Source of the DNA: Octopus sinensis
Lineage: Eukaryota
Reading direction: 5' to 3'
DNA length: 42,993 nucleotides
NCBI RefSeq assembly: GCF_006345805.1
Contig: NW_021832639.1
Span: forward strand, 1 to 42,993
The first letter of the stretch is position 1, and the number at the start of each line of letters is the position of its first letter. Positions 4,546 through 5,456 of the stretch are shown here, piece by piece. The notes under the pieces are model-generated. The model was not told the DNA's origin. It did no database searches and worked only from the letters and a program-made list of their open reading frames with translations. Position numbers and translations under genes: made by a program.

Positions 4546-5456
4546 AAAGAAGAAAGAAGAAAGCAAAGGACCACTGATGCGGTCACAGGAGTGTGACGAA
4601 AGAACTCTGGCCGAAATAAGATTAAGATTAATGTAAAAAATAAATAACTCTCAAGCAAAGTAACACCAAATATATAGTGCGTGTGTTTTTATTGGCTAAA
4701 CTGGCAAAATGACCATTTACATAATAAGAAAATAAGAAAGAAGAAAGCAAAGGACCACTGATGCGGTCACAGGAGTGTGACGAAAGAACTCTGGCCGAAA
4801 TGAGATTAAGATTAATGTAAAAAAATAAATAACACTGAAGCAAAGTAACACTAAATATATAGTGCATGTGATTTTATTGGCTAAACTGGCAAAATGACCA
4901 TTTACATAATAAGAAATTAAGAAAGAAGAAAGCAAAGGACCACTGATGCGGTCACAGGAGTGTGACGAAAGAACTCTGGCCGAAATGAGATTAAGATTAA
5001 TGTAAAAAAATAAATAACACTGAAGCAAAGTAACACTAAATATATAGTGCATGTGATTTTATTGGCTAAACTGGCAAAATGACCATTTACATAATAAGAA
5101 AATAAGAAAGAAGAAAGCAAATAACCACTGATGCGGTCACAGGAGTGTGACGAAAGAACTCTGGCCGAAATGAGATTAAGATTAATGTAAAAAATAAATA
5201 ACGCTGAAGCAAAGTAACACCAAATATATAGTGCGTGTGTTTTTATTGGCTAAACTGGCAAAATGACCATTTACATAATAAGAAAATAAGAAAGAAGAAA
5301 GCAAAGGACCACTGATGCGGTCACAGGAGTGTGACGAAAGAACTCTGGCCGAAATAAGATTAAGATTAATGTAAAAAATAAATAACGCTGAAGAAAAGTA
5401 ACACCAAATATATTGTGCATGTGTTTTTATTGGCTAAACTGGCAACATGACCATTC
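4546..5456 (+). repeat. Tandem array, five near-identical 184/185-bp units, each with a hammerhead-like motif
   Basis: The motif ctgatgcggtcacaggagtgtgacgaaagaactctgg starts at 4574, 4758, 4943, 5128 and 5312 (periods 184, 185, 185, 184). Confidence 0.97.
4568..4612 (+). ncRNA. Variant type I hammerhead-like ribozyme (first of five copies)
   Basis: GGaCCA-CUGAUGC-G-GUCACA-ggag-UGUGAC-GAAA-G-aa-C-UC^-UGGCC. All three stems can form; the core has A9->C plus one extra base. Confidence 0.6.

What the first reader, a model, noticed from the sequence alone, without database searches (positions are those of the whole stretch)
4546..5456. Five-unit 185-bp tandem array with a variant hammerhead in every unit (retrozyme-like)
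Seen: each unit has CCA-CUGAUGC-G-[GUCACA ggag UGUGAC]-GAAA-G-aa-C-UC-UGG, i.e. type I hammerhead topology with a 6-bp stem II and a minimal stem III. Predicted cuts fall after 4607, 4791, 4976, 5161 and 5345. The core deviates (A9->C plus an extra G) identically in all copies, and copy 4 has a weaker stem I. Known: metazoan non-LTR retrozymes are tandem repeats of a few hundred bp with type I hammerheads that yield unit-length circular RNAs and are thought to be mobilised by Penelope-like elements. Inference: this may be an undescribed family giving ~185-nt RNAs, with a natural core variant.
Basis: partly seen in the sequence, partly recalled or inferred. Interest (0 to 1): 0.8.

Follow-up and report, generated by a model that had tools for sequence, protein, structure and literature searches.

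The report
Penelope retrotransposon end repeated five times
The array is five head-to-tail copies of the ribozyme-bearing end of a Penelope-like jumping gene with over 2,300 scattered copies in this genome (likely an octopus), and about nine in ten copies carry a core change predicted to weaken the ribozyme, which offers a natural test of whether these elements need it.

Summary
In detail: five 184-185-bp units, each with a type I hammerhead-like motif, C at core position 9 and an extra G. The reading as a new retrozyme family does not. The unit is an internal piece of the 3' end (pLTR) of a Penelope-like element, likely Neptune clade. That element has 2,316 exact motif copies, mostly solo, and one copy with an unbroken RT-endonuclease frame. 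The window copy is one 5'-truncated insertion (4501-5532) with a 13-bp target-site duplication. The motif is a real hammerhead homologue: 5 of 11 pairs covary with a sister family. The extra G is a published trait. C9 is family-wide (2,081 copies against 183 with canonical A9) and appears derived: the older subfamily and the sister family have A9. C9 is predicted to break the G12-A9 pair and favour a rival fold. Head-to-tail copies are rare (12 loci), and this unit's junction occurs at one other locus. Unit-length circles are not predicted to self-pair; cleavage and expression were not testable. Verdict: a known kind of element with an apparently unreported core variant; moderate interest.

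The parts
4488..4500 (.). left copy of a 13-bp direct repeat, likely target-site duplication
   Evidence: the word occurs only twice in the window; 0 of 1,492 control windows share 13 or more letters with the left flank
4501..4532 (+). 5'-truncated leader of the Penelope-like 3' UTR/pLTR
   Evidence: collinear with dispersed copies and with the unbroken copy L151; contig cover begins at 4501
4533..4717 (+). unit 1 (185 bp), internal pLTR segment
4568..4612 (+). hammerhead motif 1, C9 at 4580, predicted cut after 4607
4718..4902 (+). unit 2 (185 bp); motif 4752-4796; one difference from unit 3
4903..5087 (+). unit 3 (185 bp); motif 4937-4981; its junction variant is the one found on contig C25
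5088..5271 (+). unit 4 (184 bp); motif 5122-5166 with weakened stem I
5272..5455 (+). unit 5 (184 bp); motif 5306-5350
5456..5532 (+). 3' end of the element including the optional tail of about 55 bp
   Evidence: dispersed copies stop either before or after this tail; loose ends at 5472 and 5528
5533..5545 (.). right copy of the 13-bp direct repeat, likely target-site duplication

Best explanation
The array is five head-to-tail copies of the hammerhead-bearing end (pLTR) of a Penelope-like retrotransposon; it likely grew by local duplication inside one 5'-truncated insertion, and its C9 hammerheads are predicted to cleave weakly or not at all, so unit-length RNAs are unlikely. Shown: the homology, the ends, the 13-bp flanking repeat, the copy counts and the covariation. 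Inferred steps: (1) the element's endonuclease and RT inserted a short 3' piece by target-primed reverse transcription; (2) one head-to-tail fusion formed right after an ATT motif, during or after insertion; (3) that junction was copied to give five units, with units 2 and 3 the latest duplication; (4) A9 had already changed to C in the master element, which went on spreading more than the A9 form. This suggests fast self-cleavage is not needed for spread.
For: Dispersed hits at 95-98% identity stop at the unit end and continue into a shared tail. Upstream they run into an RT plus GIY-YIG frame, unbroken over 1,044 codons in L151, whose stop lies 530 bp before a C9 motif. Of 42 position-picked copies, 19 have an inverted partial copy within 700 bp upstream. 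Exact motif counts: C9 2,081, A9 183, G or T 52. A9 copies share linked marker sites and are more diverged: 3.7% (17 copies) against 2.3% (16) and 1.6% (4), one-sided p=0.033. A sister family keeps A9. Predicted stem I probability has a median of 0.96 in 21 A9 copies and is 0.00-0.41 in the five window units. The double-hammerhead fold lies 10.5-11.1 kcal/mol above the MFE. G12-A9 is a sheared pair that holds the general base (PMC2553840). Hammerhead mutants of an Anolis element still insert in vitro (PMC11167929).
Against: No cleavage assay was possible, and I found no paper measuring A9C. The Anolis hammerhead cleaves only with its protein, so free-RNA folding may mislead. Most C9 copies still favour the hammerhead fold (median 0.75 in 16 copies), and the youngest subfamily, with U17, regains it (0.88 in 4). 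The tree that places most C9 copies inside A9 diversity has weak support (81/79). Exact-match counts under-count older copies: A shows in 13-23% of contig depth in four runs. Pfam matches to RT and GIY-YIG were below cut-off. The shared junction on C25 is not explained by purely local growth.
Confidence: 0.72

Rival explanations
1. An incipient retrozyme. The array is transcribed, and its junction has already been copied to a new site by the element's RT switching template, so the multimer is becoming mobile.
For: A 3-unit array on C25 has different flanks, an inverted 5' copy and interiors of the youngest subfamily. Yet both its junctions carry the window's fusion point and the single letter that tells unit 3 from unit 2. 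An 18-unit, 175-bp array on C9 arose separately. A 2026 preprint proposes this route from pLTR to retrozyme.
Against: Two loci only. DNA-level gene conversion explains the mosaic equally well. The crossover lies upstream of the cleavage site, not at it. The C25 copy has several 1-3-bp deletions that look like read errors. No RNA evidence.
Confidence: 0.2
2. C9 is a tolerated core variant. The hammerhead still cleaves, slowly or with help from the element's protein, and the extra G or the protein makes up for the lost G12-A9 pair.
For: All other core positions and the stems are kept through the C9 subfamilies, and the later change at position 17 (C to U) stays within the consensus and restores the predicted fold. 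Penelope hammerheads are slow and protein-assisted.
Against: The subfamilies are only a few percent apart, so lack of further decay says little. A9 is in the core consensus used to accept or reject hits (PMC3088659). Stem III (G-AA-C) is not palindromic and its dimer duplex is unstable (+0.7 kcal/mol).
Confidence: 0.25
3. An established non-LTR retrozyme family that makes about 185-nt circular RNAs and spreads as multimers.
For: Unit size, low GC (32-35%) and one type I motif per unit fit the published outline (PMC7229834).
Against: Only 12 loci have same-strand motif pairs 110-400 bp apart, nearly all with different spacings. The circle is 42-47% paired, z -1.0 to +0.9. The core is not canonical. 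The array is flanked by the element's unique leader and tail.
Confidence: 0.05
4. The array is an assembly artefact on a short unplaced contig.
For: The window is a whole 43-kb contig, and no public contig laid on it spans the array.
Against: Units differ by 7-11 letters except one pair, four junctions are near-identical, the same junction occurs on C25, and a clean 13-bp repeat flanks the element.
Confidence: 0.04

Closest known systems
pLTR of endonuclease-containing Penelope-like elements, Neptune type (PMC8557442)
   Same: Single RT plus C-terminal GIY-YIG frame with a CX4CxxC linker, hammerhead in the pLTR, 5' truncation, inverted partial copies, optional 3' tail, TA-rich sites.
   Different: Here an internal pLTR piece is repeated five times with no ORF. 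This family is not among the octopus entries found in that paper's supplement, which are Naiad and Hydra.
Minimal hammerheads of metazoan Penelope-like elements (PMC4209133)
   Same: Type I, long stem II, short stem I, extra nucleotide between 9 and 10.1, G10.1-C11.1; the sister family shows the U3-A8 swap and palindromic stem III described there.
   Different: C instead of A at position 9 in about 90% of exact copies; stem III loop not palindromic.
Metazoan non-LTR retrozymes (PMC7229834; bioRxiv 10.64898/2026.07.22.740005)
   Same: Tandem units of 150-450 bp, low GC, one type I hammerhead per unit; proposed origin from pLTRs.
   Different: Not a multi-locus family of multimers, core not canonical, unit not predicted to self-pair, circles not shown.
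Poseidon element of Anolis carolinensis, PAc (PMC11167929)
   Same: Two 3' ends that define a tail; its endonuclease prefers ATT, the motif at which the array's units end.
   Different: Other clade; its hammerhead overlaps the ORF start, has been assayed, and is protein-assisted.

Membership tests
Penelope-like element (EN+) | Single ORF with RT and GIY-YIG endonuclease | tested here: met
   1,044-codon frame in L151 with DKSG, GPP, YVDD and a GIY-YIG-like motif; Pfam RVT_1 E 0.002 and GIY-YIG E 0.002, both below cut-off; Atlas neighbours with RT/GIY-YIG at 0.96-0.97. The window copy itself has no ORF.
Penelope-like element (EN+) | 5'-truncated copies, inverted partial copies, optional 3' tail | tested here: met
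   Variable 5' ends and two 3' ends; 19 of 42 with an inverted copy within 700 bp.
Penelope-like element (EN+) | RT groups with PLE and telomerase RTs in a tree | not tested
   No named reference PLE proteins were held.
Neptune clade | C-terminal endonuclease with CX2-5CxxC linker and CCHH motif | tested here: met
   CTDNYCTVC at residue 918 and two Cys between the GIY and YIG halves; downstream His pair read by eye; criteria from PMC8557442.
Neptune clade | Tree placement against Nematis and Poseidon | not tested
   Nematis is not excluded.
Hammerhead ribozyme, type I | Three stems with covariation around the core | tested here: met
   5 of 11 pairs change on both sides, 99 of 99 cells paired, slid controls 33-54%; rests on one contrast between two families.
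Hammerhead ribozyme, type I | Core consensus including A9 | tested here: not met
   C9 in 5 of 5 units; met in 183 other exact copies.
Hammerhead ribozyme, type I | Self-cleavage | not testable with these tools
   Folding predictions only.
PLE minimal hammerhead | Extra nucleotide between 9 and 10.1; G10.1-C11.1; long stem II | tested here: met
   against PMC4209133.
PLE minimal hammerhead | Palindromic stem III/loop 3 for dimer formation | tested here: not met
   G-AA-C; duplex +0.7 kcal/mol, against -3.6 for the sister family.
Non-LTR retrozyme | Tandem 150-450-bp low-GC units, each with a type I motif | tested here: met
Non-LTR retrozyme | Complete hammerhead core in at least two consecutive units | tested here: not met
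   All five have C9; criterion from the 2026 preprint.
Non-LTR retrozyme | Same unit as multimers at many loci | tested here: not met
   Junction at 2 loci; 12 loci with close same-strand pairs.
Non-LTR retrozyme | Highly self-paired unit-length circle | tested here: not met
   42-47% paired, z -1.0 to +0.9 in 3 of the 4 possible units; prediction only.
Non-LTR retrozyme | Circular RNA present in tissue | not testable with these tools
   Only contigs of runs not on record as RNA were available.

The most novel reading that the evidence does not exclude
A retrozyme caught being born. A Penelope pLTR multimer is transcribed and has already passed its head-to-tail junction to a second locus through the element's RT, and C9 is a working natural hammerhead core that cleaves with the element's protein.
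Probability: 0.12. Interest if true: 0.72.

Novelty: new variant of a known kind. Interest (0 to 1): 0.42.

Why it matters
Why Penelope-like elements carry hammerheads is an open question (PMC8557442, PMC11167929). This genome holds a natural series in one family: an older A9 subfamily, a more abundant derived C9 subfamily, and a youngest C9/U17 subfamily with an unbroken ORF. A sister family has an intact U3-A8 core. If C9 is dead, a family spread better after losing cleavage, extending an in vitro result to a genome. If C9 is active, it is a core variant I could not find described. The three arrays also show pLTR multimers forming with recognisable junctions, the step proposed for the origin of animal retrozymes.

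Tried and rejected
Rfam on the window and on 4500-5500 gave no hammerhead match in the rows listed (179 lower rows not shown). The PDB search of the ORF gave nothing useful. C9 pairing with G12 was rejected as the main effect (P<=0.07). A second core register using the downstream GAAA was rejected because it has no stem I. C25 as an allele of the window locus was rejected: no collinear flanks over 30 kb. Foreign DNA at the junction was rejected: it matches the leader with two small changes. The count of 32 of 42 inverted copies was inflated by TA repeats and was replaced by 19 of 42. One marker column was mis-coded and ignored. A first alignment used wrong coordinates and was redone. No RNA holder was listed. 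Contigs laid on the locus did not cover the unique flanks or span the array, which is no evidence either way. Lunse et al. (PMC5785218), the main catalogue of Penelope-linked hammerhead variants, is not held; C9 may be listed there or in supplements of PMC4209133 and the 2026 preprint, which I did not see.

Full report
Observation. The array is real as described: period 185, five copies, 96% matches. A relaxed descriptor matched the unit and 0 of 20,000 shuffles. Rfam listed no hammerhead for the region, and the motif does not fold better than shuffles.

What the unit belongs to. A search of the own genome (2.72 Gb) with unit 2 gave 609 candidates, of which 40 were scored. The 39 listed matches outside the window are 95-98% identical, and nearly all stop at query position 173-174. 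The 26 fetched ones continue into a shared 3' end that stops at one of two points about 55 bp apart, often in TA repeats, and they extend upstream by variable lengths. The longest run into a frame with a GIY-YIG-like domain. Its best relative is an Octopus vulgaris RT-domain protein at 92% identity, so the host is likely an octopus (inference). One copy (L151) has an unbroken 1,044-codon RT-endonuclease frame 530 bp upstream of the motif. Pfam support is weak; motif order and Atlas neighbours agree. Of 42 copies picked by position from pattern lists, 19 have an inverted partial copy within 700 bp upstream. These are the hallmarks of endonuclease-containing Penelope-like elements, and the C-terminal endonuclease with a CX4CxxC linker points to Neptune (PMC8557442, passages); no reference tree was built. 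The window copy runs 4501-5532 and is flanked by a 13-bp direct repeat found nowhere else in the window, as expected for one insertion.

Is the motif a hammerhead? A protein search for other families (150 of 6,880 candidates scored, 50 loci examined) gave two sister families. One has 4,769 motif matches at up to one mismatch and carries, at the aligned place, U3-A8, A9, the extra G, a 5-bp stem II and a palindromic stem III. Across 9 sequences, 99 of 99 cells pair and 5 of 11 pairs change on both sides, against 33-54% paired in slid controls. This is one contrast between two families, not nine independent ones. The extra nucleotide and the U3-A8 swap are described for Penelope minimal hammerheads (PMC4209133, parts 1-2 of 4 read).

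The C9 variant. Exact 31-letter counts are 2,081 with C, 183 with A and 52 with G or T. A9 copies form a subfamily with linked marker sites. Divergence from column majorities is 3.72% for 17 A9 copies (4 of 21 dropped as truncated or on a C9-type background), 2.33% for 16 C9 copies and 1.58% for 4 C9/U17 copies; one-sided p=0.033 for the first two. With position 9 masked, 23 of 29 C9 rows fall in one weakly supported group (81/79) among A9 rows, and the window units sit near the base. With the sister family's A9, this makes C9 likely derived. Exact counts favour young copies: A shows in 13-23% of summed contig depth in four public runs. G12 and A9 form a sheared pair at the general base (PMC2553840, passages), and A9 is in the accepted core consensus (PMC3088659, passages and section 8). 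C9 also extends a rival helix: predicted stem I probability has a median of 0.96 (21 A9), 0.75 (16 C9) and 0.88 (4 C9/U17), and is 0.41, 0.28, 0.28, 0.00 and 0.41 in the window units. The double-hammerhead fold of two natural dimers lies 10.5 and 11.1 kcal/mol above the MFE. Against a firm conclusion, an Anolis Penelope hammerhead cleaves only with its protein, though its mutants still insert in vitro (PMC11167929, passages and part 2 of 4). Searches for hammerhead with A9C found no paper; a related search found no A9U data; a mutagenesis paper's passages did not give position 9 (PMC9901934). Lunse et al. could not be read.

Is it a retrozyme family? Same-strand pairs of a 15-letter exact anchor 110-400 bp apart occur at 12 loci; pairs with a changed anchor are missed. 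Three loci have three or more units: the window (5), C25 (3) and C9 (18 units of 175 bp with a different, palindromic junction). Seven of the other nine were examined; each has two same-strand copies and none has the window's junction. That junction occurs six times, four here and two on C25 (five of these again). Unit circles are 42-47% paired and no more stable than shuffles, unlike published retrozyme circles (PMC7229834, passages and parts 2-3 of 6). No run on record as RNA holds the stretch, so expression is open.

How the array likely formed. The junction joins the unit end, right after ATT, to a point in the leader with two small changes; ATT is the preferred nick of the Anolis endonuclease, so self-targeting is possible but unproven. 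Units differ by 7-11 letters, except units 2 and 3 which differ by one. So the array is about as old as the main C9 burst, with a late local duplication. The odd result is C25: its flanks differ, its interiors are of the youngest subfamily, but both junctions carry the window's fusion and the letter specific to unit 3. RT template switching, gene conversion or an assembly chimera could each explain this. It is the only hint that the multimer has acted as a template, the route proposed in the 2026 preprint (parts 1-3 of 5).

Novelty and verdict. Penelope-like elements in octopus are known (PMC13282606, passages, with no mention of hammerheads in its main text), and one octopus Hydra hammerhead is tabulated in the PMC8557442 supplement. 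A search for hammerhead ribozyme, cephalopod and retrotransposon found only that paper. The scan held no note on this sequence or genome and one loosely related note elsewhere. The element is a known kind, and the retrozyme-family claim fails. The family-wide derived C9 core, with natural A9 and U17 comparators, is the part worth a bench test. Interest 0.42.

Noticed in passing
L156, L157, L159, L162, L165, L168, L169 (3' of the endonuclease frame): Sister Penelope-like family with an intact-looking minimal hammerhead using U3-A8; 4,769 matches at up to one mismatch.
   Followed up: partly
L121-L150, L152 (about 700 bp 3' of the ORF): A third family (55% protein identity, 1,042-codon frame in L152) has a long UUCG-capped stem followed by GAAAUUU but no CUGANGA box; possibly an eroded hammerhead.
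   Followed up: partly
L113:3054-6696 (G000 C9, 102.97 Mb): 18 head-to-tail 175-bp pLTR units with a palindromic junction, preceded by two inverted units, in TA repeats.
   Followed up: partly
L056:4719-5535 (G000 C25, 22.06 Mb): Three-unit array with mosaic units: window-type junctions, youngest-subfamily interiors, inverted 5' copy.
   Followed up: yes
L151:3210-6341: Unbroken 1,044-codon RT-endonuclease frame with a C9/U17 hammerhead downstream and an inverted partial copy upstream.
   Followed up: partly
window 33445-33650: Short fragment of the same pLTR without the hammerhead, with an inverted 3' copy in front, in TA repeats.
   Followed up: partly
window 2356-2690, 7964-8332, 40244-40628: Other short tandem duplications (periods 162, 184, 126); the first two resemble a dispersed repeat also seen beside the C25 array.
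   Followed up: no
window 12231-12746 (+), 20772-21542 (-), 25072-25899 (+): Open frames of 170-280 codons; the first two look by eye like pieces of a LINE-type RT and its C-terminal domain (recalled resemblance, not searched).
   Followed up: no
L004-L030, L107, L113: Many truncated copies begin at the same 5' point as the window copy (4501-4502), often beside TA, which suggests a preferred truncation point or transcript start.
   Followed up: no
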